A DNA stretch of 64,000 nucleotides from Cyanidioschyzon merolae (lineage: Eukaryota), in assembly GCA_000091205.1 (NCBI GenBank), contig AP006502.2; one strand, 5' to 3'. This document shows positions 24,990 to 52,499 of the stretch, one piece after another. Both the position numbers and the translations under genes were made by a program. The stretch's first letter is position 1. Each line of letters begins with the position of its first letter. A model generated the notes under the pieces. That model did no database searches, had not been told where the DNA came from, and worked only from the letters and a program-made list of their open reading frames with translations.

Positions 24990-25830
24990 TTGATGGCCTC
25001 ATTCGTTTTTACATCCAGTGTGGTACTCTATGGTGACGGGCGTGTTGTGAGCCATTCCTTCGGCAAGTACTCAGTTGGCTGCACGTGCAAAGCACATGTT
25101 ATTCCATCCGATTGAGGATTCGTGGAATGCAATGCTGTCCACAATGAAACAAGTGCGGAAAGGAAAATATACCCTTGAGAAGAAGTCGAGAAATCTCGAT
25201 CCATCTCTGCAGCCTTCATACAAAGAGGTGATGCACGCTCCACTGGAAGCGATCACCGCGGGGATTGCATTGCGAATCAAAACCACTACTTTCGTACCAA
25301 GGAAAGAGACGAGAGCATCTGTGATCATATCTCGTGAGAGATACAATTCTGCTATCGAATGGCTTTTCGTGAATTACCGCAACGAGAGGAGTGCTTGTCT
25401 TTAGACCTGCGTTGAGTTTGTTGACCGGAGAAGATCCATGATCTCTAGGCATGGGCTTGTGAAGAACTCATCAAGAGACGACACTGAGGTTCGCTCCTCG
25501 TCAACCAATGGCGCGAATCGCTGCGCCCAGATGTGACAGTGAAACGGAAAGATCGAAAAATGGACGAGTTCGGGATTGGAGCACCCCACACACGTACGGA
25601 AAGGACGTGCGTTGGGTCTTGCACGCACGAATTGGATAATCATATCGGTTATTTTACGTACCCTGGTTTGATTGCGTCGCGAATCATCCCGTTGCCAGTG
25701 GAGTAACGAATTCCAGCGGCACAGCGACGCAGGAACCACTAAGAAACGCCGGCCGAGAATCCTAAAATTACGTATGGATCCGAATTCTCGAATTGCTACG
25801 TTTCGAAGATCTTGGCTGTATACTTAAAAT
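24990..25830 (+). mobile_element. Degenerate Fanzor/TnpB-like element, copy B.
   Basis: 25075-25404 (+): LFHPIEDSWNAMLSTMKQV...LEKKSRN...ERYNSAIEWLF (RuvC-III remnant, compare RGFNAAINI). Tail 25480-25700 aligns to the c1 tail (cagatgtgacagtg; gcacgcacgaattgg). Extreme tail 25690-25830 matches 20580-20720. Confidence 0.45.
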
Positions 25831-35829: not shown

Positions 35830-36973
35830 ATCATCAGAATTTTTCATATCCGTATCGTGTGCTTGGGCGAGTTGCAATACTCAAGTGTGGCAGCCAACAC
35901 GAACAGGAAATCGCTCTCCGGTACCGAATGGTCTCATGAGCTGCATCGTATTGTCTGTTGATGAGTTGATTGCATTGTCGTGCAGGGAACCTCAGGAGCG
36001 GCTATGGTGATCGGGAATCCCGTTTCAGGCTGGCACCGCTGGACCGAACAAGAATGCACCGTAATCCCTGGATACACAGAGGCGCACTGAACCCATCCAT
36101 GTGAAGCAGGCATGGTGTGAGGCTCCTTCGCAATAAATGGACGCCGCTTGCACCTTGTATGAGGTGCGAATTGTTTGTAGACAATTCGTCGGGAACGTGC
36201 TGATATTCAAGATATCGATGCTGGTGGGTAATTCCGGCAGCAGTGCGCAACTGCGCGCCGAGTCCTTCGAGTGTACTTGCATCCAGTATGGCTTCGCCGC
36301 ATGCCGGCCTCTAAGCCGTGCGAGCAGGGCTTACTCCTTTGCTTTTATCTGTGACAGCCAACACGAGAAGCATACTCGAGTTAGCGCCAACCGATCGTAC
36401 GGGTTCTGAATGTAACCGAGGCACCCAGCAGGCGTGTCGGAACTCTTGTGGATGCATATGCTGGACCGGCGTTCCAGAGCGAACGATTCGAGAAATGGGG
36501 CACTGTTTCGGACTTGTGGGCGCGAGGTCAAGGGCGGCGTAGGTGCGTTCGCAAACGCCGAAGTTGCACGATGCCCCGTTATCGAGGTTTTGTCGATACG
36601 ATTGGGGAGTAAACTCCTGGGTCGATTTTAGCATTCGGTGGCGTCTAGAACGTTCGTTTGGCCCGGATATCGATATGCACGAACTCTCCTGAACGAATGG
36701 CCGGGTCATGTTTAGACACACTCAGTAATATCGAATAATGCAACACCATTCTCGATTGGCAGTCGCCCAGGGATACCATTCCGACTACATAAATACGATG
36801 TTGCAGACTTGTTGTATTCCTGACCATACCATACTACTGAATTGCTCCAGGCGAGAATCAGATGCCGCCTCTCTAATGTCCTTGAATTCGTTTATCAAAG
36901 GTCGTCAGCGATTCAGGGCAATGCCCACGGCCTGTACGCAACGATCCGCTCCGGGGTCCGTTCGATGCAGAGC

Positions 36974-38137
36974 TCATGCGCGTTTCGCTAGCAGAGGCCA
37001 TCTCCGAACGTTGTTCGACAGACGCTCATATCTCGATCCATAAAGGGCCGTCACACGCTTCGACAGGTAAACGCACACAACTGCATGCCGCTCGCTCTCG
37101 TTGCTCGCTGCATCGGACGTTATCTCAGCGTACCGTGCAACATCTCGAGCGTCCGGCTCTGTTTCACGCTCTTCTCCTCTACCGGCATCAGCGCGCAACC
37201 GTGCTCTTGATTTCTGCATATTGTCCTGCATCCATCGATAAGCATCGGAAAGAATCGATTCCTTCGCTCGTTGCACGCTCTCGTAGATGCAGCAGGAATG
37301 CAGCCCGAGCGCGTTCCAGCGCCTCGAGCGGCAGTGCGCTGCCACCGAACAGCACGACGCATCATGCACTATCGGGTTGATGTTCATGTTCATGTTCATG
37401 TTCATGTTCATGTTCATGTTCAAGTCCATGTCCTTGATCAAGTCCTTGAGCGTGTCCACGTCCATGTCCATTTCATGGAAACCGTTGGCCAGTCTGCGCT
37501 TCTTGCCTCCGTGCAGCCGGAGCATCGGCGAGTCCGGTGCGGCTCCATCTAGTGCCTCCATAGATTGTCTGCATGAGCCATTTGGACGCTCATGTGCTCC
37601 GTGAATGCGGCGTTCAGAGAATACCTCAGACCGCTGGATTCGGCGCTCAGAGCGTCAACATGGGTCACGACGCTGTCCTTGCACTCGCTGGTAGACCGCT
37701 GGGCGCCCGCCATGTCGGGCTCCCGTTCATGCCCTTCCCTGCACAAGCTGCGCAGTTGCATTTGCTCGCCCTGAGGATCTCCGGATACATCCCCTCGATG
37801 TAGAGATACTGCATCTGAGATGACGGTTTCCAGCTGCGGATCCGGGTCCGCCGCAATGTTCGTCTCGTCGTCTACCCTGACAGGTTGAAAAAGCTGCTCG
37901 TCGGCTGACGCTGGCCTCGGTTTCATGGAGTCTGTGTTTGTGTGTGTGTGTGTGCGTATGTGTGCAGACGGACAGTCCGTCGGTGCATCGTCCCTGTGCA
38001 TTTCGTCTTGTTTCCTTCGTGTGACAGAGAAACCTTGAACGAGCCTCTGCTCTGCTCTGCTCTGCTCTGCTTGAGGCTGCTCGAGCGATACGTCGCTGCT
38101 CGAAGAGATACCAGACCCTCTTCGCTATCCGCTTCAC
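36974..38137 (-). pseudogene. Hypothetical gene inside duplication copy 1, frameshifted relative to copy 2 by a (TG)n length difference.
   Basis: ORFs 36974-37561, 37549-38001 and 37727-38137 (-) together cover the same protein as copy 2 ORFs 49604-50167 and 50155-50745. The HTHTHTH tract sits at the frame break. Confidence 0.25.
37376..37422. repeat. (ATGTTC)n hexanucleotide microsatellite, about 7 units. Its partner at about 50006-50029 has 4 units.
   Basis: Seen directly. It encodes a (MN)n/(HV)n low-complexity tract in overlapping ORFs. Confidence 0.9.
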
Positions 38138-39339
38138 TGGGATGCCCGGTCATGGTCTGGTTGCTATGCTCTACGTCTGTTTTCCTCCTTGAGAAGCACA
38201 CGGACTGGATGGGCACTGTTACTAAGACTCGCCTTCTCTGTGTATGTATCGGCGCTCTCTCGGACACGTTTTCGTTACCTTCTTGAACGCGAGCGTGTCC
38301 ACGCACTGAAACGTGCCCCTGCGCTCCCTCCTGTGCAAGAGACGCGGCCCAACACGGTAGTTCAGGGCTGGTGGAGGTATCGCAAGCGTCGTCGAAAAAC
38401 TCGAGTGTTACGGACGTGACTGACGCACCACTAGATCCGTGAGCGTCAGAGCGGCTTTTGCCAACAGAAAAGACGCTTTCGACTGGAATGGACCAACGGA
38501 GAGTAGACTGGCAGGAAGCGCAGCTCTACGCAGTCTCAGCTGCATACTCGGTGACTGCTTCTTGTTGTGACGGGAACCGACGTTTTCTAGCAGCAGGACA
38601 GAAGAGCTTGGGAACGAGGTTCCGTGAGCACTTCTTAGAAGATTGAGGTTTTTGAAGGATCCGGGCTGTTCAGCGATCTCGGGGCGACCAGACGTGTTAC
38701 CCGCCGCTAGCTAGGACTGTTGTTGCCGTCGCGCTCGCTTGTCTTGGCTGAACGAACTGCGAATCGCCCCTCTTTAACTACCCGTGCGCAAGTCTACGCG
38801 TTCTCACGAACAAAGTCGCATCGAGTGAGACATGCAGCAGTCTGTCCCACGGTAAGCGATCCCTGAACAATACAAAAGCAAAGCTGAGCTGAGCTGAGCT
38901 GTCCGACACAGGATACGTTCCGGTGGCATCGCGCTTTCTCCCGCGTCCATTGGTGGCCCTTCACCGCTCTTCGTATCATGGGTACGGAAGTTTCAGAAAC
39001 TGTGGCTTTGCCAGTAGAGCTTCATAGCGAACGCTTGGAGACGAATGGAATGACGAGACGACGGTCGTGGAGATCGAGGTCCATAGGTTGCACGTCGGGT
39101 GCACCATGTCCAGACCGAGGACTAGGCAGCGAATGGCCCGTGCATCTGCCCACCGAAGAATGCCTGAATACTACACCTAAGATCCTCTGTCGCATGCTAC
39201 CAGAGACATCATAAAGTCGTCCCGCAACGCTCTTCCAACATGCTGGATACAGTCCATTAGTTGAGTGCCTGCGAGAAAAACAGAGGACGACGATGAAAAC
39301 GGCGTGCTGGTACAGGAGCTCCAGAATGCACTGCTCTGT

Positions 39340-42300
39340 TTATAGGCTCTCGATAGATGCCAAGTACTGGTGTGGGGAGAGCACGCTTGTACCGCCAATT
39401 ACCACGTCAATCTGCAGATGTGTAGCGAGTCCTCGTATCTGCTCCACTTCAAGAGCGGTGACTCCACCAAGTACCACGAACAGGAAGCGATCGTTTCGGT
39501 AACGTTCAGCGGCTCGCTGGAGACGATCCACCAACGCTGCATGCACTCCAGCGTCCTCGGGCAATGTTTCAGTCGCATCTTGCTGCTGCTGCTGCAGTGC
39601 CTCTGTGCCGTCTAAGGCTTCACAAACAGTCGCTTGTGATCGCACGTTCCTTTGTGCACTAGATGGGGGACTTGACGGCGACAGCGCCTCTGCCAGCATG
39701 CCTGCTTCTTCAGCGATACGCAACCTGCTGCGACGTGCACTGCGTTTGACGTCGACATCTGGCGTCGCCCGGTCGACTTGCTGAACGACTCGTGGAGTCG
39801 TTTGCGTGTCGGCTGCCGTTCGCTGTTCGTCGCTTTGATTACATGTTGTCCCTGGACTGTGCATCATATGCGCGTCCTCAGAATGAATACCTTTGCGGGT
39901 GTTCTGGCTGGGCATGGCGTCCAGTTGCATACCGACAGCAGCATCGTGCGTCATATCATGTCCCTGGGTTGCAGGCGTCGTCGTCGTCGTCATCGTCGTC
40001 GTCGCAGCGAGCGGAGCTGTCACGTGAGGCTCGGGCGCTGGCGACGGCGCTCGCGGCTCCACGAGCAACGTAGACAAGAAGAGTTCCGCAGCCGGTGACC
40101 CCAGCGGCTCCTTGTGTTCATGGTCGGACGCAACAGCGCTGTCGTCGTGCCCTTCAGCGACTTCATGTCGTTGTTGAAGATCGAATGCGCCCATATACTG
40201 GAGCAAAATTTGGCTCGCCATCGTCTCCGGTAACAGTAGCGATCCAAGTGACTCGTGTACCAGCACTCGAGCTCGCCGTCTCCGTCGCACGCGGGCGGAG
40301 CGCGTTGCCCACTTGGCGGCACGAAGGCGTTGAAGAAACGCATTCGCCGTTCGTATCAGCGAGTCTTGCGTCTGCAGGTCCAGTCCCGGAATTTTCTGGA
40401 CCAGTTCCCTGACAAGATGTGGGTCCCGGCATCCAAGGAACACCAGCAGTAAGCGCAGCTTGTCGGAGAGCGCATACGTGTCCGCTTCGAGAACCTTTTC
40501 CACGGTACGGCGCATCGTAGCGGAACTGATTCGTGACCCTTGATCCTGCTTGATACCCATGACGATGCACCTTTCCAACGCCGATAAATAGAGTAGATTT
40601 CGTTGTTGCTGTTCTTGGAGACAACGCTCCAGGCTCTTTGCATGCCAGCGCAAAGCGGAAAGCAACTCCAACTGCGCCGGGTCCGCTGCTTGGAGGCTCT
40701 CAAGCGCTCGCTTCAGCGAGGCAAGATCCAGGTCGATACATTCCGCATGAGTCACGCGGTTATCTGAGTCAGGCTCGCTGGATGCGAGGAGCGGCTGCGC
40801 GAGCGCCTGCAGTTTCGCCACAGCGTCCGATAGCGTGTACTGTCGCAGCGCTCGCCAGACCGCATCGTGCTCGGAAGGCCACTGCGGTCGGGCGTTTCCC
40901 GCTGCATCATTCAGTTCCAGAAGCATGCCGCGGTAGGTGTTCACGTGTAGCAGAGGCGTAACGGGGTCCACGGCACGATCCATGAGCAGGAGGTGCAGGG
41001 CACCGCGCCCTGCCACCAAACCTGGACAGAACAGCGGCAAGAGATGCACCGCTGCATACGTCTGAGCCGCCCTGGCAATGCAGGTCGCTTGTTCACTAGC
41101 CGCAGGAGAGGTATGAATCTGAATCCAGGGGGCTTCATTCGCAAAGGTGCCTGCACCCATGCCGTGCAGTAGGGTGCCGATCTGGTGACCGAGTTCCTCC
41201 ATGAGCTGGAACCGCATGGCGCAGGTCTCGGGAGCATCTGCACCGTACAAGAGACCAAATACGTCTTCCCGATTCTCGATACTTACCACTTGTTCCTCGA
41301 TCGGGAAAAAGTCCACATGAATGGGTAGTAAGACGGTGCTTCCGTCAACGTCCGCCCAGGAAATGGCGTGGCGGCGGGGCAGCGGTGCGCTCGGCGAACG
41401 CGTCAACAAGAGCCGCACCGGCACTGGAGCGCTTCGCTTAGCCTCATAGCGCGCCACACTGGTCATCCAGTCGCCCGTTGGAGCCAGAATATAGATTGTT
41501 GGGAGCTCTAGTTCCCGATTTCCGCAACGAGGAAGCTGCTCCAGGAGACATATCCGTGCTGAAGGGAAGCATTCGGCCAAGTTTGGTCCCAGGGCATATT
41601 TCAGGAGCACTGCAGTGCGGGCGTCGAGAACAAGAAGCCAATCTCTTTGCCCAAAGTGCTCCACTTGATCGTGGACAAGGGCGACCAGGAGACGCTGCAC
41701 TCGCTGGACGATGCTGAAAGGTTTTTGAGAATCGTCTATCGACCCGAAGCTCGGCAAACTGAGCATCAAAGGCGACAGGCTGTCCATGGACAGGATCCCC
41801 CCCGGAATACCCCAGCGCGGCTCATTCGCTGCCTCAGACCCGAGACTCGTCGGGCTGAGCGTGCCCTTCTCCGCTGCATCAGCTGCTTGAAATCCGTAGG
41901 CAGCCCCGAAATGCGCTTTTTTCTCGAAGCCAGCTCGTCGCTGCCGTCGTCTGCGCAGAAGGCACCATACCAACAATACACCGAATACCAGAGCGAGTAC
42001 GATCAGCACCGCCACAATGGCAGCTACGGCACCTGTACTGATGCCTTGAGCGGGACCCGCGGTCACAGCGTTGGCCTCGTTTGGATCCTGGACATCAACC
42101 GCGAGCACGTTGTCCGCGCCACAAGATACGGGTCCGAGCGCCGTCAAGTTACTCAAATGGCCCCTGCATACAAAGCGATTCAACGCTGTTTGCCAAGCAT
42201 CTAAAGCACTTGCGCTGATGACGCCCGCATAAGTGGCGATCACTGATCCAGCACGCAGATCGACCAGCACCAGCGGCGGGTCCGACAGAAGCGCTTCGCG

Positions 42301-43329
42301 TATATCCGGATTTCGCAATAGCGCTTCCGTGATATTTTGACTCACGCCAGTGGTAAATTTGCTCAGCATTAATCCCGTAAAATTCAACGGGAAGACTACC
42401 CGACGCGATGATTCTCCCCGGAAGGCAGGGAGTGGCGCGATAGTTGCCTGAGCGCTCCGCACGCCGCTGGCGATCGGGAACGGTAGCGGTGTCGGCACCG
42501 AGTCGCTCCCAGCGCTTTTAGCCGTCACCAGCACATTCGCGTATCGAATACCGGGGCAACGGGCATTGTAGAGGGCCCAGGTACCGCTGGAGAACGTGTT
42601 GTCACTCGTCTCAACAGAGAGCTCTCCGTTAATGAACACTTGAAGGCGGGCGTGATCGCAGCGCACGTGCAGCTCGACAAAGTCTCCGAGCGGGTACGGC
42701 TGCGCGTGCGCCGCTGTCGCAATCGTGTTCCAGCTCCCGTTCGCGACAACCTGCAGCTGCTGAATAGCGCCGCTGGCACGAACTCCCGGCTCTTCCGTGT
42801 TACTCCACACGAAGCGGTAATAGTTATTCGAGTCCTGAATGCGAAACATGACTCCGGCCAGTCCGTTAACTGCGGCATTGATCGCAACATAGATATCGTA
42901 GTTGGTGAGGGTCTCAGAGCCGGCCCCGATGTACTGGAGAAACGTGCCTGCATAGGGGTCGGCGGCGCTATTTGGCGAGAAAATGTTCTTGGTCTGCTCG
43001 AGCACCGCACCGCTCTCGTAACGCATCCCGTTCGCATCCACGTCGGTTTCAATCCAGAAGGAGGGCGCCCCAATCGAGCCCTGGTCCACTGGCTTCCACA
43101 CGCTCGTGTCTATTGGACATATTGGCGCTGTGCAGGAAGAGAAGTCCGTTCCGAAAATGACACCAGACTCGCTCACTCGAAACTTGCTCCAGTCGGGTGA
43201 AGCGCCCCTGACTGATTCGGAAACGCCCAAAAGCGCCAGCACCAGAACAAGCGCGCAGAGCCAGCGGTACCGCCGGGGCCACGGACGCCAGCGCGCACCC
43301 GAGAGCAGCGCGGCAACCGATGCGAACAT
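39340..43329 (-). CDS. Single ORF encoding a signal peptide, a ConA/LamG-like ectodomain, a TM helix and a complete Sec1/Munc18 (SM) domain. Apparent fusion protein.
   Basis: The track ORF starts on TTG at 43371. The first ATG is at 43329 (MFASVAALLSG...). The hydrophobic signal-like segment LCALVLVLALLGVSESVRG and the TM helix AVAAIVAVLIVLALVFGVLLVWCLL followed by RRRRQRR lie at about 41955-42035. Downstream come SM motifs: WLLVLDARTAVLL...LPTIYILAPT; LLMDRAVDPVTPLLHVNTYRGMLLEL; C-terminal FLFVVLGGVTALEVEQIRGLA...IDVVIGGTSVLSPHQYL. No in-frame stop lies between the modules. Confidence 0.5.
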   Translation of the reverse strand: MFASVAALLSGARWRPWPRRYRWLCALVLVLALLGVSESVRGASPDWSKFRVSESGVIFGTDFSSCTAPICPIDTSVWKPVDQGSIGAPSFWIETDVDANGMRYESGAVLEQTKNIFSPNSAADPYAGTFLQYIGAGSETLTNYDIYVAINAAVNGLAGVMFRIQDSNNYYRFVWSNTEEPGVRASGAIQQLQVVANGSWNTIATAAHAQPYPLGDFVELHVRCDHARLQVFINGELSVETSDNTFSSGTWALYNARCPGIRYANVLVTAKSAGSDSVPTPLPFPIASGVRSAQATIAPLPAFRGESSRRVVFPLNFTGLMLSKFTTGVSQNITEALLRNPDIREALLSDPPLVLVDLRAGSVIATYAGVISASALDAWQTALNRFVCRGHLSNLTALGPVSCGADNVLAVDVQDPNEANAVTAGPAQGISTGAVAAIVAVLIVLALVFGVLLVWCLLRRRRQRRAGFEKKAHFGAAYGFQAADAAEKGTLSPTSLGSEAANEPRWGIPGGILSMDSLSPLMLSLPSFGSIDDSQKPFSIVQRVQRLLVALVHDQVEHFGQRDWLLVLDARTAVLLKYALGPNLAECFPSARICLLEQLPRCGNRELELPTIYILAPTGDWMTSVARYEAKRSAPVPVRLLLTRSPSAPLPRRHAISWADVDGSTVLLPIHVDFFPIEEQVVSIENREDVFGLLYGADAPETCAMRFQLMEELGHQIGTLLHGMGAGTFANEAPWIQIHTSPAASEQATCIARAAQTYAAVHLLPLFCPGLVAGRGALHLLLMDRAVDPVTPLLHVNTYRGMLLELNDAAGNARPQWPSEHDAVWRALRQYTLSDAVAKLQALAQPLLASSEPDSDNRVTHAECIDLDLASLKRALESLQAADPAQLELLSALRWHAKSLERCLQEQQQRNLLYLSALERCIVMGIKQDQGSRISSATMRRTVEKVLEADTYALSDKLRLLLVFLGCRDPHLVRELVQKIPGLDLQTQDSLIRTANAFLQRLRAAKWATRSARVRRRRRARVLVHESLGSLLLPETMASQILLQYMGAFDLQQRHEVAEGHDDSAVASDHEHKEPLGSPAAELFLSTLLVEPRAPSPAPEPHVTAPLAATTTMTTTTTPATQGHDMTHDAAVGMQLDAMPSQNTRKGIHSEDAHMMHSPGTTCNQSDEQRTAADTQTTPRVVQQVDRATPDVDVKRSARRSRLRIAEEAGMLAEALSPSSPPSSAQRNVRSQATVCEALDGTEALQQQQQDATETLPEDAGVHAALVDRLQRAAERYRNDRFLFVVLGGVTALEVEQIRGLATHLQIDVVIGGTSVLSPHQYLASIESL

Positions 43330-45099
43330 CCACCACGTCCTGTGACGACTCAGTATAAAACCTGTGCCCAACCCTGCGCGTAAAACTCAATGAAAACAAA
43401 GCGCGTGATACCTGGAAGCGCAAGGCGGATCGCAGAACAGAAATCTCTGTTCATTGTAGGAGAAATAGGCATTCGATCGATCCGAGTATGGACGCGTGGC
43501 CTGGGGAGCAAACAGCGCCGGCTGGTGGCGCCTCGAGGGCCGGTGGCGGCACGTGCCGCTTCCGCGCACAGGGCGGCGCTTTTGTTGTGGCCCGGACCTA
43601 GCGGGGAAGCCGACGGAGATGGTTCATATTTGTCTATTAATGAATAAGAATATGAAGCGGCAGCAGGGCAATCGAGGTCTCCGCGCTCTTGCGCGTACCC
43701 CGCTGGACAGGAAAATGCGTACGCGCGCGCGGCTCGCATCCGATGATCGACACCTGTGATCGATACACATGCGATACTGAACTGCTCGTGCTATCCCTGC
43801 GTTGTGACTTGTCGCAAATTGCAGCGTTAAACGGACAACCTAGAGATCAAAAGTGCATGCATAGGAGATTACGGGTGCATATATAGGTATACGATTTTTG
43901 ATCGATTTTGTTCGGAGTGGGTTCTTCGAAGCTTTTGCGCCTGGGATTCGTTACGTTCCCAGAAACAAGATGACTGGGGGCGGCGCCCACAAATAATGAT
44001 TGGGAAAATAACCAATGTCGCGATGCAGCGTATGCGTCCAAGTCTCCGCTATTCTTCTATCGTTACATGTATCATGTTCAAATCACGTATTCTTCGTGGT
44101 TTCGATCGCACTGTTCTGAAGCGAGTCGTGCACGCAGTAATGCACGTCGCCGGATTGGCCACGAAACCAGAGCTCAACGTCGACTCTCGAAGGCGTTTTT
44201 CACATCGAATCATTTGTCTCGTTCGAAACACAAATCCGCCTCTGTTTCGAGGCATCGACCAATCGGCATTCGCCTGGAGCATAATACCTGTCACGGGATA
44301 TGCTCGCAAGGGCCCCTGTCTCTTCTCTTTGCATTCAAAAAAGGGTACTGGACACGAGCTCCAGTTATCGCAACGATCACTTCCCGTGGACCATAAGCGG
44401 ATGGAAAACTCTCGATCTCTCCTCTAACCTGGATTCCGCTTCCGAAACGTGTTCCATCATGACCAAGATCGCGTTTCATAAATCCCGTCTCGAATGGAAC
44501 ACTGCGCGCTTGCGCTCGCGGAGGATACCCTATTTACTGCGTGAATCGCACAGAAAAAACATGTGATCATGCGATACGACGATGTGTGCGAAAATGCAGG
44601 ACGGTACCGAAAGAAGCCTTCCGTAGTGTCCAGGTACATGCGGCAATCGATGAAGCAAGCGTTCAAGCTGCACTAGCCGCCGATAAAAGAGAGGGCACTT
44701 GTTGCGATGGACATCTGGGACGCCTGACCGCTGCCAAGTGTCACTGCTGCGAGGGACGAACCGAGGTCGCGTTCGAAGAACGTGCGTAGATCACAACTTT
44801 TGCCGGTGCATGAATCGCGTGAACAACACCCAGAAGCAGCGAAATCGGCGACTTGGACGCTACGATCAATACCCCTTGACCGGCATTAACAGAGCTGAAC
44901 AGACAGGAGAGATCGACGTAATCTGAGCCTGAGACCATACGGAGGTAAGGCAGGCAGTCGGAGACGAATCCCTCAAAGACTTTTGTTCATGACTGTGGGA
45001 AGCATCCCAAACTTGAGAATGTACGCTCGAGTTAGACCAGTGGACCTGCACCTTTCGATTCTGATATCGCGAGATGCTCGGTCGAGCAAAGAAGCAGAC

Positions 45100-45660
45100 G
45101 TCGACCGGGGGCTGGCGGGTACATCTATTCAGCCAATCCCAGACGCCTTCCAGCCTTTATTAGGCCGGCCGACTGCTAACGGTTTCAGTTTATCCGGGCA
45201 CACTTCGAACCTCAGAGGCAAACCCCACGAAGCTGGATTACGTCAGGCCGTCGTGTCTCGTCTTCAGCACCACACAGCGTCTGATATTGATAGCAGCGTT
45301 GAAGCCCCGGGTCACGAACTCCATGCGTTTGTTGCCTCTGGTCGAACTCACAAGTGCAAGAATTGCTAGAACTCGTGCCCCATCAGAGCCACTACAGTCT
45401 CGACATTGTCCTGTCGGGCAAGCACCGTGTCCCGCACATCTCCGCTCTTCCTCGTCTTTTGCTTCTACATCACTTGCTCTTCTTCGCTCGATCGTCGGCG
45501 AGAAGAGGATTTTTCTGTTTCCTTTCCAGTACCCGGCGATCTCGGGCCCGCCAGGACCCCTGACTTGCACGTCCATATCCGCCCCTTGGGTTTCTTACTT
45601 GTCCAAACGAGCACATGTCGAAAACGTCCAGCATAAACCGCAAAAAAAAGCACTTGACGC
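45100..45660 (-). mobile_element. Fanzor/TnpB-like remnant, copy c4.
   Basis: ORF 45238-45576 (-): ...RRCAGHGACPTGQCRDCSGSDGARVLAILALVSSTRGNKRMEFVTRGFNAAINIRRCVVLK. A cysteine cluster is retained upstream of RuvC-III. Upstream DNA is about 80% identical to c3 (atcgagcgaagaagagc.agtgat). The tail aligns to c1. Confidence 0.5.
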
Positions 45661-45787
45661 AACGCACCTGGAGATGGAACGCAATTCAGATGAAAGTCCA
45701 GAACGCACGCTGCGGCACCGGATCGCCGCAAGATCGCAGGCGCGCAGCGTGCACAGACGGCGCCTTTGCCGCTGAGGGTAGCGTCCG

Positions 45788-46010
45788 TCACGAGAAGCGG
45801 CCTGTGCGCGTCTGTCACGAGAAGCGGCCTGTGCGCGTCTGTCACGAGAAGCGGCCTGTGCGCGTCTGTCACGAGAAGCGGCCTGTGCGCGTCTGTCACG
45901 AGAAGCGGCCTGTGCGCGTCTGTCACGAGAAGCGGCCTGTGCGCGTCTGTCACGAGAAGCGGCCTGTGCGCGTCTGTCACGAGAAGCGGCCTGTGCGCGT
46001 CTGTCACAGC
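45788..46010. repeat. 27-bp minisatellite, about 8.5 perfect units (GTCACGAGAAGCGGCCTGTGCGCGTCT).
   Basis: Seen directly. It translates as (HEKRPVRVC)n or (VTRSGLCAS)n in overlapping ORFs and lies immediately beside remnant c4. Confidence 0.9.
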
Positions 46011-46471
46011 TGGGAACGGCTGCACAGCAGTGCTTCGCGCTCACTTGGCTGTTCCAGGAAAGCACATCTGGGGCTATGTCGACGTCAAGGTTGTGTACAA
46101 GTTTCCGAGCGATTAACGGCCGGGGCTTAGGGACTCTCGTTCCACGGCGAGGGCTGCACCAGACAACAGCGAGAAACCGAGCGACGCACGGCGAACACGA
46201 CGAACACCACGATGTGTACGGGTACCTGCACGCTCCGCACATGTACGACTTGAGTCACGCAAGCAAGTGGAAGTACGGCATTGCGACGTTTACATTTGTT
46301 ACAACAGGGCTGGGATTGCCTTTCTTCATGGTATGGTACTCGCAGAAAAAAGCCGGCATATGGTAAGACGGTTTCGATCAAGGTATTGTTGCTGGGGCTG
46401 TTGGCTGCTTCTTGAGGTTGGCGTCTCGTGTCCAACTTGTAAACACTACTTGTTTCTGAGTAACCCACGTT

Positions 46472-47128
46472 TTAGAGATACCGTTGGGGGAAGGAGAAAA
46501 TAGGTTCCATAAGAGAAGCAGCGCTCGGCAAACCAGACGCAGACGTGAGTACGTCGCGCACAAGCAGCGGCGGTTCAAGGCCCAGCGCCTGGGCACGTTC
46601 CCAGCGCTCGAGGCGACTGATACCTACACAAGGGCCGTATCGCACATCGAGGTCAAACATACGTAAAATATCTTCAGCATTTTCGTATCCCTCTGGACTT
46701 GCTGTCAAAGTGGAGGCACCGCCCCCGACTGTCGCTCCCTGCAATGTCGCTGTCGTCAGCGTTCTTGACGGCCTCGGAGCCTTCGTTGGCGTCTCCGGTG
46801 ATAACGTTCCTGACCTTGGTGCCGCCTCCTCAAACGTGCCAGGCTGGTGCGCTTTGTGTAACACGCGCACAGGTGTCGTCGAACCTGGTACGCTTCGTGC
46901 GGAAGCGGTCTGCGCGGCGCCAGACTTGGAAGCGCCACTTAAGGTCGATTTTCGACTCGTTGCTTCCATACGCAGCGTCTGTCTATCATGCTTTTGGTTT
47001 CGTGCGCTAGCCCTTGGAGAGCTGGCAGCTGCCGCGCCACCGGTCGCCTTCGAGACGCCCTCCGAAGTGACGTGCTGCTTGGCAGCGCGGGACCTGCCTC
47101 CTTGCCTCGTTCGCGTCGACACTGGCAT
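46472..47128 (-). CDS. POLD4: DNA polymerase delta subunit 4 (p12/Cdm1-like), with a long S/T/A-rich N-terminal extension.
   Basis: ATG (cat at 47126-47128). C-terminal ILRMFDLDVRYGPCVGISRLERWERAQALGLEPPLLVRDVL matches the POLD4 family core (FDL..YGPC.GITRL.RW.RA..LGLEPP). Confidence 0.6.
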   Translation of the reverse strand: MPVSTRTRQGGRSRAAKQHVTSEGVSKATGGAAAASSPRASARNQKHDRQTLRMEATSRKSTLSGASKSGAAQTASARSVPGSTTPVRVLHKAHQPGTFEEAAPRSGTLSPETPTKAPRPSRTLTTATLQGATVGGGASTLTASPEGYENAEDILRMFDLDVRYGPCVGISRLERWERAQALGLEPPLLVRDVLTSASGLPSAASLMEPIFSFPQRYL

Positions 47129-47449
47129 CTTCCGATAAAAACCTTAAAATAAATTCACCTGAGAACTTGTTTCCAGTACCAGACTATACCAAATCGAAGG
47201 TTTCATGAAACGCATTCCTCTGAGAAGCTCGCGATCGAACGACAGAGGAAGCGCTGCGGGCGATGTTGTGCTGCACGTCCGGCTGCGGCCGGTAACGCGC
47301 TGGCCGCCCGAACGACGACTTGTCGCGGTTCACGACGCTGTTCAACGCAGATTCGCGCTCTACACGGTACCAGCAACACGTAGTACAAGCAACACGACAC
47401 ACTGTCTTGGGAAGCACGCTTCCAAAAGCCTTGTGAACCGCTTAATTCA

Positions 47450-48196
47450 ATGGCGCTTCGCGTTCAGTTCGAGAACAATAACGATATCGGGTGTTTCGCC
47501 CGACTCACGAACGCTTACTGCCTGGTAGCCGTCGGCGGAAGTGAAGCGTTCTACTCGGCGTTCGAAGCGGAGCTTGCGGATCATATTCCTGTCATTCACG
47601 CTTCTGTCGCTGGTTGCCGCATCATCGGCCGGCTGTGCGTGGGTAATAAGCACGGCCTACTGCTTCCGAGCACCACGAACGATCAGGAGCTTCTACACAT
47701 CCGGAACTCGTTACCCGAGAGTATCGTAGTGCAGCGCGTCGAAGAGCGTTTATCTGCTCTGGGCAACTGCATCGCTTGTAACGACTACGCTGCGCTGGTG
47801 CATACGGACTTGGATCGTGAAACGGAGGAAATCATAGCGGATACTCTGCAGGTGGAGACGTTTCGTCAGACGCTTGCTGGCGAGGCGCTCGTTGGCAGTT
47901 ACTGTTACTTCACGAATCAAGGCGGCGTTGTTCACCCTATGTGTAGAGTGGAGGACCTAGATGAGCTCAGCGGCCTCTTGCAGGTCCCGCTGGTCGCAGG
48001 CACCGTCAACCGAGGCAGTGAAGTGATTGGAGCGGGGATCGTCGCCAACGACTGGCTCGGCTACTGCGGCTTTGCGACGACCGCAACAGAGCTATCTGTT
48101 GTGGAGAGCATTCTCAAGCTACGGACTTGGGCTGATAACAATGCATACGATTCGAGCGGTGCATTCAAGTCGGCGCTTATTGATGCCTTGGCTTGA
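47450..48196 (+). CDS. EIF6: Eukaryotic translation initiation factor 6 (eIF6/Tif6).
   Basis: ATG at 47450. Full-length 248 aa. [32 protein letters not shown]...[23 protein letters not shown]...[43 protein letters not shown] is collinear with eIF6. Confidence 0.9.
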
Positions 48197-49603
48197 GTTG
48201 CTCCTGCAGCGCACGCAGAGCATATTGGGATACTCGTGAAAGCCGGGGACACCTACGCCTCGAGTTGTCTGCAGAGCACTGATGGAACCGTCTGGGCTGG
48301 GAATTGGGCAAGTGCCCATCCAGATGCAATTTGAGGTGCACGAATGCATAGCTAGAAGGATGGCGTCCAAGCGGGTAGCTGCGCTCTCGTGCACCTCGTG
48401 TCTTTGCTTGAGGCGTAACACAAGCGCAGCGCCATCCTGGTATTCCGCGTCTGGGCTACATAGACAATGGTACTGGTGCGGCTCCGGTGTCATCGTTCGT
48501 GTGAAGCCTTTATGAGCAAGACAACGTAGACGCTGCAAGTTGCGTACGATGACTCGATGACAAATAGGCTCTACGCAGAGCACAGCACTCATCACGCTTG
48601 AGATGGTAGCGCTTCGGTGGCACTCCCGTGTGGTTGGCTAGAATACCAACAGCCTCTCAACAAAGATAGTCTGGGACAAGACGATGTCGGCAGCAGGACC
48701 TGTCAGAGGCGATCAGTACTCCCTATATCGTTTCTGGAACAAAGCTGTCGTGAGAGACGCATGATTTCACTGCATTGCACCACTGCTGAGTAATCGAGAT
48801 TTGTATGCATCCGTGCTTCCGGGATTGAACGTAACGCATTTCAAGTCGGTTGGTTGCGTAAGCAAGCAGGCGCTGCTGGCTACGGTGTGCTCGAAAGCGC
48901 GCGCACGTCCACGAGTGAACGTCATGGAAGCGTGCGAATGCGCTCCTCGATCATCTCTTCAACGCTTGCATGTCGCTCGTCTGCGCTTGTGCGGTGCTTT
49001 CCGTTCCGTCTTTCGATACCTTTCAAACTTGGCACCTGGGACTTGTTCAGTTTATGCCCATGACAGCCAAAGTGGATGCAGAGCAACATCGCTTGCGCTT
49101 CATGCTCGCCGGACGCAAACGCATTCGTTCCCACAGAAAACGTCACGCGCAAAACCCCGCTTGTTGGGCGGGCATGCGCAGCAAATCCGGGACCGCTGAC
49201 AAAGGTGTTGCCATTCCTGCTCATCATGGCGTTGTGCTGAGGTCTCGGCTCGTTTGGAGCCGTGTAGCTCATGTGGCTCCATAGCGCGCAAGTATGCACC
49301 GCAGCTTCGCCAGTTGAAATTCGGCAGCCACGTGTGTATTCTGCGAGAAACTCAGTAATATCGAATAATGCAACACCATTCTCGATTGGCAGTCGCCCAG
49401 GGATACCATTCCGACTACATAAATACGATGTTGCAGACTTGTTGTATTCCTGACCATACCATACTACTGAATTGCTCCAGGCGAGAATCAGATGCCGCCT
49501 CTCTAATGTCCTTGAATTCGTTTATCAAAGGTCGTCAGCGATTCAGGGCAATGCCCACGGCCTGTACGCAACGATCCGCTCCGGGGTCCGTTCGATGCAG
49601 AGC

Positions 49604-50745
49604 TCATGCGCGTTTCGCTAGCAGAGGCCATCTCCGAACGTTGTTCGACAGACGCTCATATCTCGATCCATAAAGGGCCGTCACACGCTTCGACAGGTAA
49701 ACGCACACAACTGCATGCCGCTCGCTCTCGTTGCTCGCTGCATCGGACGTTATCTCAGCGTACCGTGCAACATCTCGAGCGTCCGGCTCTGTTTCACGCT
49801 CTTCTCCTCTACCGGCATCAGCGCGCAACCGTGCTCTTGATTTCTGCATATTGTCCTGCATCCATCGATAAGCATCGGAAAGAATCGATTCCTTCGCTCG
49901 TTGCACGCTCTCGTAGACGCAGCAGGAATGCAGCCCGAGCGCGTTCCAGCACCTCGAGCGGCAGTGCGCTGCCACCGAACAGCACGACGCATCATGCACT
50001 ATCGGGTTCATGTTCATGTTCATGTTCAAGTCCATGTCCTTGATCAAGTCCTTGAGCGTGTCCACGTCCATGTCCATTTCATGGAAACCGTTGGCCAGTC
50101 TGCGCTTCTTGCCTCCGTGCAGCCGGAGCATCGGCGAGTCCGGTGCGGCTCCATCTAGTGCCTCCATAGATTGTCTGCATGAGCCATTTGGACGCTCATG
50201 TGCTCCGTGAATGCGGCGTTCAGAGAATACCTCAGACCGCTGGATTCAGCGCTCAGAGCGTCAACATGGGTCACGACGCTGTCCTTGCACTCGCTGGTAG
50301 ACCGCTGGGCGCCCGCCATGTCGGGCTCCCGTTCATGCCCTTCCCTGCACAAGCTGCGCAGTTGCATTTGCTCGCCCTGAGGATCTCCGGATACATCCCC
50401 TCGATGTAGAGATACTGCATCTGAGATGACGGTTTCCAGCTGCGGATCCGGGTCCGCCGCAATGTCCGTCTCATCGTCTACCCTGACAGGTTCAAAAAGC
50501 TGCTCGTCGGCTGACGCTGGCCTCGGTTTCATGGAGTCTGTATTTGTGTGTGTGTGCGTGTGCGTATGTGTGCAGACGGACAGTCCGTCGGTGCATCGTC
50601 CCTGTGCATTTCGTCTTGTTTCCTTCGTGTGACAGAGAAACCTTGAACGAGCCTCTGCTCTGCTCTGCTCTGCTCTGCTTGAGGCTGCTCGAGCGATACG
50701 TCGCTGCTCGAAGAGATACCAGACCCTCTTCGCTATCCGCTTCAC
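49604..50745 (-). CDS. Hypothetical protein encoded in the duplicated segment (two overlapping ORFs, 49604-50167 and 50155-50745, offset by one frame).
   Basis: D/E-rich, HT-repeat and MN-repeat low-complexity ORFs. The frame offset falls at a microsatellite. This could be an unspliced short intron or a frameshift. Confidence 0.25.
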
Positions 50746-51979
50746 TTGGATGCCCGGTCATGGTCTGGTTGCTATGCTCTACGTCTGTTTTCCTCCTTGA
50801 GAAGCACACGGACTGGATGGGCACTGTTACTAAGACTCGCCTTCTCTGTGTATGTATCGACGCTCTCTCGGACACGTTTTCGTTACCTTCTTGAACGCGA
50901 GCGTGTCCACGCACTGAAACGTGCCCCTGCGCTCCCTCCTGTGCAAGAGACGCGGCCCAACACGGTAGTTCAGGGCTGGTGGAGGTATCGCAAGCGTCGT
51001 CGAAAAACTCGAGTGTTACGGACGTGACTGACGCACCGCTAGATCCGTGAGCGTCAGAGCGGCTTTTGACAACAGAAAAGACGCTTTCGACTGGAATGGA
51101 CCAAGGGAGAGTAGACTGGCAGGAAGCGCAGCTCTACGCAGTCTCAGCTGCATACTCGGTGACTGCTTCTTGTTGTGACGGGAACCGACGTTTTCTAGCA
51201 GCAGGACAGAAGAGCTTGGGAACGAGGTTCCATGAGCACTTCTCAGAAGATTGAGGTTTTTGAAGGATCCGGGCTGTTCAGCGATCTCGGGGCGACCAGA
51301 CGTGTTACCCGCCGCTAGCTAGGACTGTTGTTGCCGTCGCGCTCGCTTGTCTTGGCTGAACGAACTGCGAATCGCCCCTCTTTAACTACCCGTGCGCAAG
51401 TCTACGCGTTCTCACGAACAAAGTCGCATCGAGTGAGACATGCAGCAGTCTGTCCCACGGTAAGCGATCCCTGCACAATACAAATGCAAAGCTGAGCTGA
51501 GCTGAGCTGAGCTGAGCTGAGCTGAGCTAAGCTGAGCTGAGCTGTCCGACACAGGATACGTTCCGGTGGCATCGCGCTTTCTCCCGTGTCCATTGGTGGC
51601 CCTTCACCGCTCTTCGTATCATGGGTACGGAAGTTTCAGAAACTGTGGCTTCGACAGTAAAGCTTCATAGCGAACGCTTGGAGACGAATGGAACGACGAG
51701 ACGACGGTCGTGGAGATCGAGGTCCATAGGTTGCACGTCGGGTGCACCATGTCCAGACCGAGGACTAGGCAGCGAATGGCCCGTGCATCTGCCCACCGAA
51801 GAATGCCTGAATACTACACCTAAGATCCTCTGTCGCATGCTACCAGAGACATCACAAAGTCGTCCCGCAACGCTCTTCCAACATGCTGGATACAGTCCAT
51901 TAGTTGAGTGCCTGCGAGAAAAACAGAGGACGACGATGAAAACGGCGTGCTGGTACAGGAGCTCCAGAATGCACTGCTC

Positions 51980-52108
51980 TGTTTATAGGCTCTCGATAGA
52001 TGCCAAGTACTGGTGTGGGGCGAGCACGCTTGTACCGCCAATTACCACGTCAATCTGCAGATGTGTAGCGAGTCCTCGTATCAGCTCCACTTCAAGAGCG
52101 GTGACTCC
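51980..52108 (-). pseudogene. Duplicated 3' fragment (last about 43 codons) of the SM-fusion gene.
   Basis: ORF 51983-52231 (-) ends ...GGVTALEVELIRGLATHLQIDVVIGGTSVLAPHQYLASIESL. This is identical to the SM C-terminus except for two substitutions, and it diverges upstream. Confidence 0.6.
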
Positions 52109-52499
52109 ACCCCAGTAGCCCGGCCTTGCCCGTTCCACATGATCGACGATTCTCAGTCGATATATCCCTCCGATAAAGAGCGTGCCCTTGGCGACGCAAG
52201 AGTGCACTCGCCCGCACGCCGCACCAATCACAGAAATCGCTGCACGAAAAGCGCCGAGTACAAACTATATCGAATGCCAAGGAGTTCTTGTGCCGTAGTG
52301 GGCTCTCTTCGTTTGCGTGTTAGAGTTCTTGCAGCTTACCAAACACAGAAAGTAAGGAGGCGGACTGCCAGATTCACTCCAGGGTGCTTTTAGTGGCCGC
52401 TACTGCCGCTAAGCGCAGGTCGGGAGCGCAGCGCGCGGGCGAGGAACTCGTTTTGGAACGGGCGCGCCTAGTTGGTCGTCGCTTCAGCAAGTGCGCTGC

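What the first reader, a model, noticed from the sequence alone, without database searches (positions are those of the whole stretch)
36721..52108. 2.75-kb near-identical direct repeats bracketing a 9.9-kb interval containing essential genes (SM, POLD4, eIF6)
Copies at 36721-39468 and 49351-52108 are almost identical apart from microsatellite unit counts. That implies very recent duplication or ongoing gene conversion. Copy 1 ends inside the genuine 3' end of the SM gene. Copy 2 carries the same 43 codons as a dead fragment. So copy 2 was generated from the copy-1 locus.

Direct repeats of this size and identity are NAHR substrates. Recombination would delete or tandemly amplify eIF6, POLD4 and the SM gene. 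The first nuclease remnant c4 and the minisatellite lie in the bracketed interval.
Basis: seen in the sequence. Interest (0 to 1): 0.6.

Follow-up and report, generated by a model that had tools for sequence, protein, structure and literature searches.

The report
Old 2.75-kb duplication in red alga
A 2.75-kb stretch of mostly non-coding DNA next to a membrane-trafficking gene on chromosome 20 of the red alga Cyanidioschyzon merolae was copied 12.6 kb downstream; the duplication is real and shared by wild strains, but it is an ordinary segmental duplication with occasional copy-to-copy correction and no sign of copy-number change.

Summary
Direct repeats lie at 36720-39468 and 49350-52111 and bracket 9,881 bp. 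They differ by about 25 substitutions (0.92%) and three indels.

The window is Cyanidioschyzon merolae 10D, from its 1.62-Mb record (chromosome 20).

Copy 1 is the DOHH-SM intergenic region plus the last 42 codons and stop of CMT347C, a Sec1/Munc18-like gene. Copy 2 is an insertion between eIF6 and a SNF2 helicase gene.

All four junctions recur at the same bases in many independent environmental assemblies. Two diverged relatives keep the gene order but have no repeat. So the direction is copy 1 to copy 2, and this is not an assembly artefact.

The repeat body has no conserved ORF, no RNA-family hit and no other copies. It is not the known 253-copy interspersed element and not an LTR.

It is not "very recent". 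The paralog divergence equals the between-strain non-coding divergence, and every sampled strain has the duplication. Two to three lineage-specific substitutions shared by both 10D copies, and no position-specific variants shared across strains, indicate episodic gene conversion.

Three "eIF6-repeat-SM" contigs that looked like amplification come from transcript assemblies, so there is no genomic evidence of copy-number variation.

Verdict: an ordinary low-copy repeat, of low interest.

The parts
36720..39468 (.). Repeat copy 1 (A1, the source copy), 2,749 bp: DOHH-SM intergenic DNA plus the last 129 nt of the CMT347C coding sequence
   Evidence: Self-alignment. X|A and A|B junctions reproduced in independent assemblies.
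49350..52111 (.). Repeat copy 2 (A2, the derived copy), 2,762 bp, inserted in the eIF6-SNF2 helicase spacer
   Evidence: B|A and A|Y junctions reproduced. The outgroup eIF6-SNF2 spacer is only 1.2 kb and has no repeat.
39340..39468 (-). True 3' end (42 codons plus stop) of CMT347C lying inside copy 1
   Evidence: ORF and translation. Homologous to the C-terminus of the outgroup orthologs.
51983..52111 (-). Dead fragment of the CMT347C 3' end in copy 2, with 2 non-synonymous differences and no in-frame ATG
39469..49349 (.). Bracketed unique interval B (9,881 bp)
39340..43329 (-). CMT347C (BAM83303), 1,329 aa: signal-like N-terminus, DUF1080-like domain, TM segment, Sec1/Munc18 domain
   Evidence: Exact match. 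Pfam. PDB best hits are Munc18-2 and Munc18-1. Hydropathy.
44400..45594 (-). Fragment 'c4' of a diverged dispersed repeat family that is also present at six other places in the window. Its nuclease identity is unconfirmed.
   Evidence: tblastx, alignment. No Pfam or PDB support.
45781..46007 (.). 27-bp minisatellite, 8.4 units, 99% identity
   Evidence: Unit number differs between assemblies.
46076..46366 (+). COX7C-like small ORF (probably BAM83304)
   Evidence: Pfam PF02935, 30.1 bits against a cutoff of 25. Conserved block in the outgroup.
46472..47128 (-). DNA polymerase delta subunit 4 (BAM83305)
47450..48196 (+). eIF6 (BAM83306)
37376..37431 (.). (GTTCAT)n microsatellite in copy 1. Its counterpart at 50006-50037 is 24 bp shorter.
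51490..51544 (.). (AGCTG)11 microsatellite in copy 2. Its counterpart at 38882-38901 has 4 units, a 35-bp difference.
36720..37287 (.). Left 568 nt with no difference between the two 10D copies; a possible recent conversion tract
   Evidence: P = 0.004 for this position, but 0.095 for a gap of this size anywhere. Other strains vary at 13 sites here.

Best explanation
This is a DNA-level, insertional (non-tandem) segmental duplication on the 1.62-Mb record (chromosome 20) of Cyanidioschyzon merolae.

A 2.75-kb segment was copied and inserted 9.9 kb away, in the same orientation, into the spacer between eIF6 and a SNF2-family helicase gene. The segment consists of the non-coding DNA downstream of the Sec1/Munc18-like gene CMT347C plus the last 129 nt of that gene. 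The insertion created two new blunt junctions.

The event happened after the lineage separated from its nearest sampled relatives, and before (or around) the common ancestor of strain 10D and the environmental strains sampled here. The repeat body encodes nothing recognisable and evolves at the rate of the flanking non-coding DNA.

The two copies have exchanged sequence by interlocus gene conversion at least once since the strains diverged. In 10D they have since drifted 0.92% apart.

As direct repeats in an organism with efficient homologous recombination, they could mediate deletion or duplication of the 12.6-kb unit. Deletion would remove eIF6 in a mostly haploid organism and should be eliminated by selection, which would explain why only the two-copy state is seen.

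Shown: the repeat, its junctions, its direction, its presence in other strains, its absence in the outgroups, its lack of coding or RNA-family content, and the conversion signature.

Inferred: the repair or replication mechanism that made it, and selection against the deletion product.
For: - Repeat and its differences.
- Organism and annotation: exact matches to BAM83301-83303 and BAM83305-83307 of C. merolae 10D, with no CDS annotated inside either copy.
- Junctions: all four (X|A, A|B, B|A, A|Y) sit at identical bases in independent assemblies. One 122-kb contig spans X-A-B-A-Y (L012+L001). Many contigs break 30-214 nt into the repeat, as expected for a repeat with at least two copies.
- Outgroups: L028 (SM 51% identical, 135-kb contig) and L030 (59%) keep the order MT-DOHH-SM-COX7C-POLD4-eIF6-SNF2. 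They have no kb-scale repeat. Their spacers are 1.2 kb (eIF6-SNF2) and 0.88-1.74 kb (DOHH-SM), against 4.3 and 3.5 kb here. Only the SM C-terminus is conserved.
- Content: no Rfam or tRNA hit. No Pfam hit on the repeat's ORFs. Those ORFs have no homologs other than the repeat itself. The ORFs differ between the copies because of frameshifting indels.
- Not a dispersed element: the best translated match of the repeat to anything else in the window is 27 bits. A metagenome scan found it only in the two known positions.
- Age: between-strain non-coding divergence is 0.3-1.7%, against 0.92% between the copies.
- Conversion: 3 lineage-specific sites are shared by both 10D copies, against 0 position-specific variants shared across strains. 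About 0.02 such sites are expected from parallel mutation.
- Recombination competence in this alga.
Against: - The repeat interiors of short-read metagenome contigs cannot be phased. The zero differences between the copies in L012/L001, and the 10 between L011 and L021, may partly reflect collapsed assembly. So the degree of homogenisation in the non-10D strains is uncertain.
- The conversion argument rests on 2-3 sites.
- The mechanism of insertion is not identifiable. There is no microhomology, no target-site duplication and no filler sequence at the junctions.
- The repeat appears to be transcribed across its length in transcript-type assemblies. An RNA-mediated origin, or a function for the repeat, is therefore not excluded.
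- Only a 64-kb window and environmental contigs were available, not the rest of the 10D genome.
Confidence: 0.78

Rival explanations
1. RNA-mediated origin. Copy 2 would be a 5'-truncated cDNA of a long CMT347C transcript (the last 129 nt of the CDS plus a roughly 2.6-kb 3' UTR or read-through), inserted by non-LTR retrotransposon machinery or captured at a double-strand break.
For: - The repeat is colinear with the 3' end of the gene and starts inside the CDS, as a 5'-truncated retrocopy would.
- Transcript-type contigs run from the SM 5' end through up to the whole repeat (L032 reaches 1,973 nt into it; L009, L010 and L031 cross it).
- The genome has non-LTR retrotransposons, some with an intact RT ORF.
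Against: - No poly(A)/poly(T) remnant at the expected end (left of 49350).
- No target-site duplication.
- The transcript 3' end was not mapped.
- A 2.6-kb 3' UTR would be unusual in this compact genome.
Confidence: 0.08
2. Tandem duplication of the whole 12.6-kb unit (A+B), followed by deletion of the second B.
For: Tandem duplication is the commonest duplication type. The B|A junction at 49349|49350 is what such an event would create.
Against: It needs a second event whose right breakpoint coincides exactly with the first event's breakpoint and whose left breakpoint falls at the A|B boundary. No intermediate (genomic B-A-B) was found.
Confidence: 0.05
3. Very recent duplication with no gene conversion.
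For: 99% identity between the copies.
Against: - The same junctions are present in all sampled strains, which differ from 10D by 0.3-1.7% in non-coding DNA.
- The paralog divergence equals the strain divergence.
- Lineage-specific alleles are shared by both copies.
Confidence: 0.03
4. The two copies are members of a mobile or dispersed family. Candidates are the 253-copy, roughly 3.2-kb interspersed element of this genome, LTRs of a retroelement, or the ends of a composite transposon.
For: The size is similar to the 3.2-kb interspersed element reported for this genome. Direct repeats flanking an interior resemble LTRs.
Against: - No similarity to the dispersed family that is present seven times in the window.
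- Only two genomic contexts were found.
- No TG..CA ends and no target-site duplication.
- The interior consists of host genes whose order is conserved in outgroups that lack the repeats.
- The repeat includes part of a host gene's CDS.
- No LTR retrotransposons are known in this genome.
Confidence: 0.02
5. Assembly artefact in the 10D reference (a false duplication).
Against: - The copies differ at 25 sites and 3 indels.
- The reference was finished from BACs.
- All four junctions are seen in independent assemblies from many samples, including one contig that spans the whole structure.
Confidence: 0.01
6. The 12.6-kb unit is amplified in tandem, or excised as a circle, in some wild populations (active NAHR).
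For: Three contigs from three samples read eIF6-side spacer, then the repeat, then full-length SM (L009, L010, L031).
Against: - Those contigs end at scattered positions 85-170 nt upstream of the SM and eIF6 start codons, like transcript 5' ends.
- The same sample series yields mRNA-sized POLD4 contigs with unrelated 5' sequence or internal rearrangement. L009 itself has a chimeric end.
- JGI produced many metatranscriptome assemblies of a 10D-like alga.
- Two convergent transcripts merging through a shared repeat explains the contigs.
- No long multi-gene genomic contig shows B-A-B or X-A-Y.
Confidence: 0.03

Closest known systems
Segmental duplications / low-copy repeats (LCRs) that undergo interlocus gene conversion and can mediate NAHR, as described in human and yeast genomes
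   Same: - Direct repeats over 1 kb and over 97% identical, separated by unique sequence.
- Derived from non-repetitive DNA, including a gene fragment.
- A concerted-evolution signature.
- Architecture suitable for deletion or duplication of the intervening segment.
   Different: - Very small scale (2.75 kb, one pair), in one of the least redundant eukaryotic genomes known.
- No copy-number variant observed.
- The interval contains at least one gene expected to be indispensable in a haploid, so the deletion product should be lethal.
Engineered direct-repeat pop-out (URA marker recycling) in C. merolae (Takemura et al. 2018/2019, as reviewed in PMC8504449)
   Same: Same organism and same topology: directly repeated sequence flanking an interval, resolved by homologous recombination.
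   Different: The engineered repeats are identical and their loss is selected with 5-FOA. Here the repeats are 0.92% diverged, and loss of the interval would be selected against.
Processed (5'-truncated) retrocopies made by non-LTR retrotransposon machinery
   Same: Copy 2 is colinear with the 3' end of a gene, begins inside its coding sequence, and appears to be transcribed DNA.
   Different: No poly(A) tail and no target-site duplication. It would need a 2.6-kb 3' UTR.
The 253-copy, roughly 3.2-kb interspersed repetitive element of C. merolae (Nozaki et al. 2007)
   Same: Similar length, same genome, reported as transcribed.
   Different: No sequence similarity to the dispersed family seen in this window. 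Only two copies, with a host-gene fragment at one end.

Membership tests
Segmental duplication / low-copy repeat | Two or more copies at least 1 kb long and at least 90% identical, not explained by high-copy repeats | tested here: met
   2,749 and 2,762 bp, about 99% identical. No similarity to the dispersed family in the window. Only two contexts found in the collections.
Segmental duplication / low-copy repeat | Both copies physically present (not an assembly artefact) | tested here: met
   Four junctions at identical bases in independent assemblies. One 122-kb contig spans the whole structure.
Segmental duplication / low-copy repeat | Derived state relative to a single-copy ancestor | tested here: met
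   Two outgroups with conserved synteny lack any kb-scale repeat and have short spacers.
Interlocus gene conversion (concerted evolution) | Lineage-specific substitutions shared by both paralogs, and a lack of position-specific variants shared between lineages | tested here: met
   3 sites (37014, 37248, 38527) against 0. About 0.02 expected from parallel mutation. Caveats: the non-10D copies come from short-read assemblies, and one transcript contig (L010) shares the 10D allele at 37014.
Interlocus gene conversion (concerted evolution) | Identifiable conversion tracts (runs of identity longer than expected) | tested here: inconclusive
   The left 568 nt are identical in 10D. P = 0.004 for that position but 0.095 for a gap anywhere.
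NAHR-generated copy-number variation | Recombinant junctions (B-A-B duplication or X-A-Y deletion) in genomic DNA | tested here: not met
   No X-A-Y contig was found. B-A-B appears only in contigs from transcript-type assemblies. Read depth and long reads are not available.
LTR retrotransposon | TG..CA termini, a 4-6 bp target-site duplication, and an internal gag/pol | tested here: not met
   The ends are ACTCAG...CTCCACC and the flanks do not match. The interior is host genes that are syntenic in the outgroups.
Processed retrocopy | 3' poly(A) tract and flanking target-site duplication | tested here: not met
   The SM-sense 3' end of copy 2 reads ...ATTACTGAGT|TTCTCGCAG. There is no A-run and no shared flank motif.
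Processed retrocopy | The copy is colinear with a mature transcript, ending at its poly(A) site | not testable with these tools
   Transcript-type contigs cover the repeat, but the transcript 3' ends cannot be mapped here.
C. merolae 253-copy interspersed element | Sequence similarity to other family members, with a truncated WSV486-like ORF | tested here: not met
   Best translated match to any other part of the window is 27 bits, while true family fragments match each other at 40-71 bits. The repeat's ORFs have no homologs.

The most novel reading that the evidence does not exclude
The repeat body is a transcribed non-coding unit: a long 3' UTR or lncRNA downstream of CMT347C. Its second copy, placed between eIF6 and the SNF2 helicase gene, would be retained and kept similar by gene conversion because it does something, such as acting as a terminator or insulator between convergent and tandem genes in a very compact genome. 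Alternatively, the pair would allow reversible amplification or circular excision of a 12.6-kb cassette carrying eIF6, POLD4, COX7C and the SM gene in natural populations.
Probability: 0.06. Interest if true: 0.45.

Novelty: new member of a known kind. Interest (0 to 1): 0.2.

Why it matters
C. merolae is used as a minimal, almost redundancy-free model eukaryote with efficient homologous recombination. This documented 2.75-kb direct repeat pair has four practical consequences:
- **Gene targeting:** it matters when designing targeting constructs near CMT347C, eIF6 or the SNF2 helicase gene.
- **Read mapping and variant calling:** reads from the two copies can be confused, and transcript or short-read assemblies merge across them. 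That produced false "eIF6-repeat-SM" contigs here.
- **Conversion rates:** it offers a small natural system for measuring interlocus gene conversion in a red alga.
- **Essentiality:** the pair brackets genes whose loss should be lethal in a haploid.

Beyond that it is an ordinary segmental duplication and changes no general picture.

Tried and rejected
1. LTR or composite-transposon reading. Rejected: no TG..CA ends, no target-site duplication, and a host-gene interior that is syntenic in the outgroups.
2. Membership of the 253-copy interspersed element. Rejected by translated self-comparison.
3. A hidden gene or RNA in the repeat. Rfam at E<=1 and ARAGORN found nothing. Pfam on its ORFs found nothing. 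Exact look-ups of ten ORFs found no annotated protein. Homology searches with two of its ORFs found only the repeat itself, or nothing.
4. The metagenome scan with the central ORF gave only four loci, all in known contexts, so a broad census of flanks was not possible.
5. B-A-B contigs as evidence of amplification. Pursued through and rejected as merges in transcript assemblies.
6. Retrocopy hallmarks were looked for and are absent.
7. Microhomology and hairpins at the breakpoints: nothing beyond chance.
8. Nucleotide similarity between the outgroup spacers and X or the repeat body: none, the sequences are saturated.
9. Nuclease (TnpB/Fanzor-like) identity of the dispersed fragments. There is only a short R(D/G)FNAAINI motif resemblance recalled from memory, with no Pfam or PDB profile support.
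10. Using within-strain copy identity in metagenome contigs as proof of homogenisation. Set aside, because short-read assemblers can reuse a collapsed repeat.


Full report
**Observation.** A seeded repeat search and a gapped BLASTN self-comparison of the whole window find a single long repeat pair.
- Copy 1 (A1) is 36720-39468 and copy 2 (A2) is 49350-52111. They are in direct orientation, 12,630 bp start to start, and enclose 9,881 bp (B, 39469-49349).
- A pairwise alignment with flanks shows identity collapsing to background immediately outside both ends.
- Inside, the copies differ by 25 substitutions (24 in a multiple alignment), which is 0.92%.
- There are three indels: 24 bp in a (GTTCAT)n tract, 2 bp beside a (TG)n tract and 35 bp in an (AGCTG)n tract.
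The description "identical apart from microsatellites" understates the substitutions.

**Where this is.** Exact-sequence look-ups identify the window as Cyanidioschyzon merolae strain 10D, on its 1,621,617-bp record; the CMT locus-tag prefix marks chromosome 20. The genes are consecutive:

| Accession | Gene | Coordinates |
|---|---|---|
| BAM83301 | Bud23-like methyltransferase | 33397-34335(-) |
| BAM83302 | deoxyhypusine hydroxylase (DOHH) | 34894-35829(+) |
| BAM83303 | CMT347C, the Sec1-family "SM" gene | 39340-43329(-) |
| BAM83305 | POLD4 | 46472-47128(-) |
| BAM83306 | eIF6 | 47450-48196(+) |
| BAM83307 | SNF2-family helicase | 52500-58046(+) |

- Pfam confirms these assignments.
- A COX7C-like ORF at 46076-46366 is probably BAM83304.
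- No CDS is annotated inside either repeat copy.
- The 10D genome was finished telomere to telomere from BACs (PMC1955436).

**Anatomy.**
- A1 begins 890 bp downstream of the DOHH stop codon. It ends 129 nt (42 codons plus stop) inside the 3' end of CMT347C, exactly at a codon boundary.
- A2 carries the same 129 nt with two non-synonymous changes. These sit in an 82-codon ORF with no in-frame ATG, so it is a dead fragment.
- The remaining 2.62 kb of the repeat has several short ORFs. They differ between the copies because two of the indels shift the frame.
- These ORFs have no Pfam match, are not annotated, and have no homologs other than the repeat's own copies.
- Rfam at E<=1 and ARAGORN find nothing in 35800-52600.
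- G+C is uniform at 49-60%.

**Is it real, and which copy is the original?** Contigs carrying the same or nearly the same proteins were retrieved from many independent metagenome, ENA and Logan assemblies, 98.3-99.6% identical to the window.
- All four junctions (X|A1, A1|B, B|A2, A2|Y) occur at exactly the same bases as in the window.
- One 122-kb contig (L012+L001) spans X-A-B-A-Y. A 39-kb contig spans X-A-B-(A), and a 142-kb contig spans B-A-Y.
- Many others stop 30-214 nt into the repeat at both ends of B. That is what short-read assemblers do at a repeat with at least two copies.
- An assembly artefact in 10D is therefore excluded.
- Two diverged orthologs of CMT347C (59% and 51% identity) gave outgroup loci.
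- The 135-kb outgroup contig L028 keeps the complete order Mak16...MT-DOHH-SM-COX7C-POLD4-eIF6-SNF2. It has no repeat longer than 90 bp.
- Its eIF6-SNF2 spacer is 1.2 kb. In the window the spacer is 4.3 kb, which is 1.53 kb plus A2.
- The SM-DOHH spacers in L028 and L030 are 1.74 and 0.88 kb, against 3.51 kb in the window.
- Only the SM C-terminal codons of the repeat are conserved in the outgroups.
- The 2.6-kb non-coding body of the repeat is itself specific to the C. merolae lineage.

**Known repeats as rivals.** Nozaki et al. 2007 report 253 copies of a roughly 3.2-kb interspersed element making up about 5% of this genome.
- A translated self-comparison reveals a diverged dispersed family with fragments at about 100-1200, 7000-7360, 17400-17710, 19020-20090, 24650-25725, 44400-45520 and 58950-59230, matching each other at 40-71 bits.
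- Nothing in that family matches the repeat, whose best match outside its own pair is 27 bits.
- A scan of metagenome contigs with the central ORF of the repeat found only the two known positions.
- The ends are not TG..CA, there is no target-site duplication, and the interior is syntenic host genes. An LTR or composite-transposon reading therefore fails.

**Age.**
- In unique non-coding DNA next to the repeat, 10D differs from the other strains by 0.3-1.7%, typically about 0.9%. In the SM coding sequence the difference is 0.33-0.55%.
- The two 10D copies differ by 0.92%. Any two full-length copies from different strains differ by 20-36 substitutions, whatever their position.
- Together with the shared junctions, this places the duplication at or before the common ancestor of the sampled strains. 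It is not "very recent".

**Gene conversion.**
- Polarising the 24 differences between the 10D copies with the other strains gives 7 private to A1, 3 private to A2 and 14 where both alleles also occur in other strains' copies.
- Using only long, multi-gene (genomic) contigs, no variant is position-specific across strains.
- Three sites (37014, 37248, 38527) carry one allele in both 10D copies and another in every other copy at both positions. One transcript contig shares the 10D allele at 37014.
- With roughly 12 private changes per copy in 2.75 kb, about 0.02 identical parallel hits are expected. At least one interlocus conversion after the lineages split is therefore required.
- The haplotype TCG at 39009-39017 occurs only in copies joined to SM (10D A1, L010, L031-L033). 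All A|Y-flanked copies, and some SM-flanked ones, have CAA. This is consistent with an old paralog-specific variant that has been converted in part of the population.
- The left 568 nt are identical between the 10D copies. This is suggestive only (P = 0.095 allowing any position).
- Caveat: the interiors of short-read metagenome repeats cannot be phased. The 0 differences (L012 vs L001) and 10 differences (L011 vs L021, whose B regions differ at 12 of 9,482 sites) cannot be taken at face value.

**The apparent amplification junction.** Three contigs from three JGI samples (L009, L010, L031) read eIF6, spacer, repeat, then full-length SM. That is the B-A-B junction expected from unequal recombination or a circle. 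I followed this up because it would have been the most interesting outcome.
- Their ends scatter over 43413-43445 (43839 in L009) and 47279-47337. These positions are 85-170 nt upstream of the SM and eIF6 start codons.
- Four further SM contigs from the same sample series start at the same place.
- POLD4 contigs from the series are 1.4-2.3 kb. They match the window only from about 47.20-47.24k down to about 45.9k, and carry unrelated 5' sequence (ubiquitin, a ZNF380-like gene) or internal rearrangements.
- L009 begins with 83 nt of misplaced eIF6 coding sequence.
- JGI assembled many Poly-A and RiboMinus metatranscriptomes of a "C. merolae 10D-like isolate" from Lemonade Creek, Yellowstone (PMC11662350).
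- I infer that these are transcript assemblies. Two convergent transcription units, eIF6 read-through into A2 and SM with its 3' region in A1, were merged through the shared repeat.
- I could not verify the sample types directly. Even so, these contigs are not evidence of genomic copy-number change.
- No long genomic contig shows B-A-B or X-A-Y.
- A by-product is that the repeat seems to be transcribed along its whole length.

**Mechanism of origin.**
- The structure has two novel junctions, 49349|49350 and 52111|52112.
- There is no microhomology, filler sequence, target-site duplication or nearby hairpin.
- That fits insertion of a copied fragment by end joining or by template switching during repair or replication. 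I cannot discriminate between these.
- A tandem duplication of A+B followed by a precise deletion needs coincident breakpoints.
- A 5'-truncated cDNA of a long SM transcript is attractive because the repeat is colinear with the gene's 3' end and is transcribed. However, there is no A-tail and no target-site duplication.

**Consequences.**
- Direct-repeat pop-out by homologous recombination is used routinely in this alga (PMC8504449), so the pair is a credible substrate.
- Deletion would remove CMT347C, COX7C, POLD4 and eIF6. From general knowledge of eIF6 (yeast TIF6) this should be lethal in haploid cells. That would explain why only the two-copy arrangement is seen, but it was not tested here.
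- The repeat evolves at the same rate as the neighbouring non-coding DNA, so nothing indicates a function.

**Verdict.** This is a genuine but ordinary low-copy segmental duplication with a concerted-evolution signature, in a genome famous for its lack of redundancy. It is a new instance of a well-known kind of feature.

Noticed in passing
window 39340-43329 (-), CMT347C / BAM83303: The Sec1/Munc18-family protein has an unusual architecture. It has a signal-peptide-like N-terminus, a DUF1080/3-keto-disaccharide-hydrolase-like domain (PF06439, 25.3 bits, just below the 26.8 cutoff), one strong hydrophobic segment (about residues 430-455) followed by RRRRQRR, and then the Sec1 domain. The closest PDB hits are Munc18-2 and Munc18-1. 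The PF06439+Sec1 combination is also recorded for a 59%-identical ortholog (P0025). SM proteins are normally soluble, so a membrane-anchored one would be worth a separate look.
   Followed up: partly
window ~100-1200, 7005-7316, 17400-17792, 18959-20090, 24650-25725, 44400-45594, 58950-59230: A diverged dispersed repeat family has seven fragments in 64 kb. Four fragments share a conserved block ...S(S/A)T...F.NR.FNAAINI.R.. that from memory resembles the RuvC-III motif of TnpB/Fanzor nucleases. Pfam and a PDB profile search gave no support. It may correspond to the 253-copy interspersed element, or to the 'bacterial-type transposase' elements, of Nozaki et al. 2007.
   Followed up: partly
window 45781-46007: A 27-bp minisatellite (8.4 units, 99% identical) lies between the dispersed-family fragment and the COX7C-like gene. 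The unit number differs between assemblies (about 7 fewer in L001, 2-3 more in L008 and L006), though short-read assembly may distort this.
   Followed up: partly
window 46076-46366 (+): A 96-aa ORF matches Pfam COX7C (PF02935, 30.1 bits against a cutoff of 25), and its 3' part is conserved at 77% nucleotide identity in the outgroup L028. This exact ORF is not in the protein collection, so the 10D annotation (probably BAM83304) may use a different start.
   Followed up: partly
L039-L046, L009 (JGI samples 33000503xx, 33000526xx, 33000536xx): Contigs from these samples behave like transcript assemblies. Their ends cluster 76-170 nt upstream of start codons. This gives approximate 5' ends for POLD4 (about 47.20-47.24k), eIF6 (about 47.28-47.34k) and SM (about 43.41-43.45k). 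Several are chimeras joined at those ends (ubiquitin-POLD4, ZNF380-like-POLD4, eIF6 fragment-eIF6 upstream). Such contigs in public collections can mimic structural variants.
   Followed up: yes
window 11525-11644: A perfect 60-bp tandem duplication (11525-11584 = 11585-11644, 100% identity) turned up in the self-BLAST.
   Followed up: no
window 35026-35283 vs 35533-35790: An internal repeat within the DOHH gene (44% amino-acid identity over 86 residues) matches the two HEAT-repeat halves expected for deoxyhypusine hydroxylase.
   Followed up: no
window 36720-39340 vs outgroup loci L028 13922-15660 and L030 4419-5294: The 2.6-kb non-coding body of the repeat has no counterpart in either outgroup. 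Their SM-DOHH spacers are 1.74 and 0.88 kb, and the part of the window spacer outside the repeat (X, 890 bp) is about the size of the whole L030 spacer. So the repeat body may itself be an older lineage-specific insertion of unknown source.
   Followed up: partly
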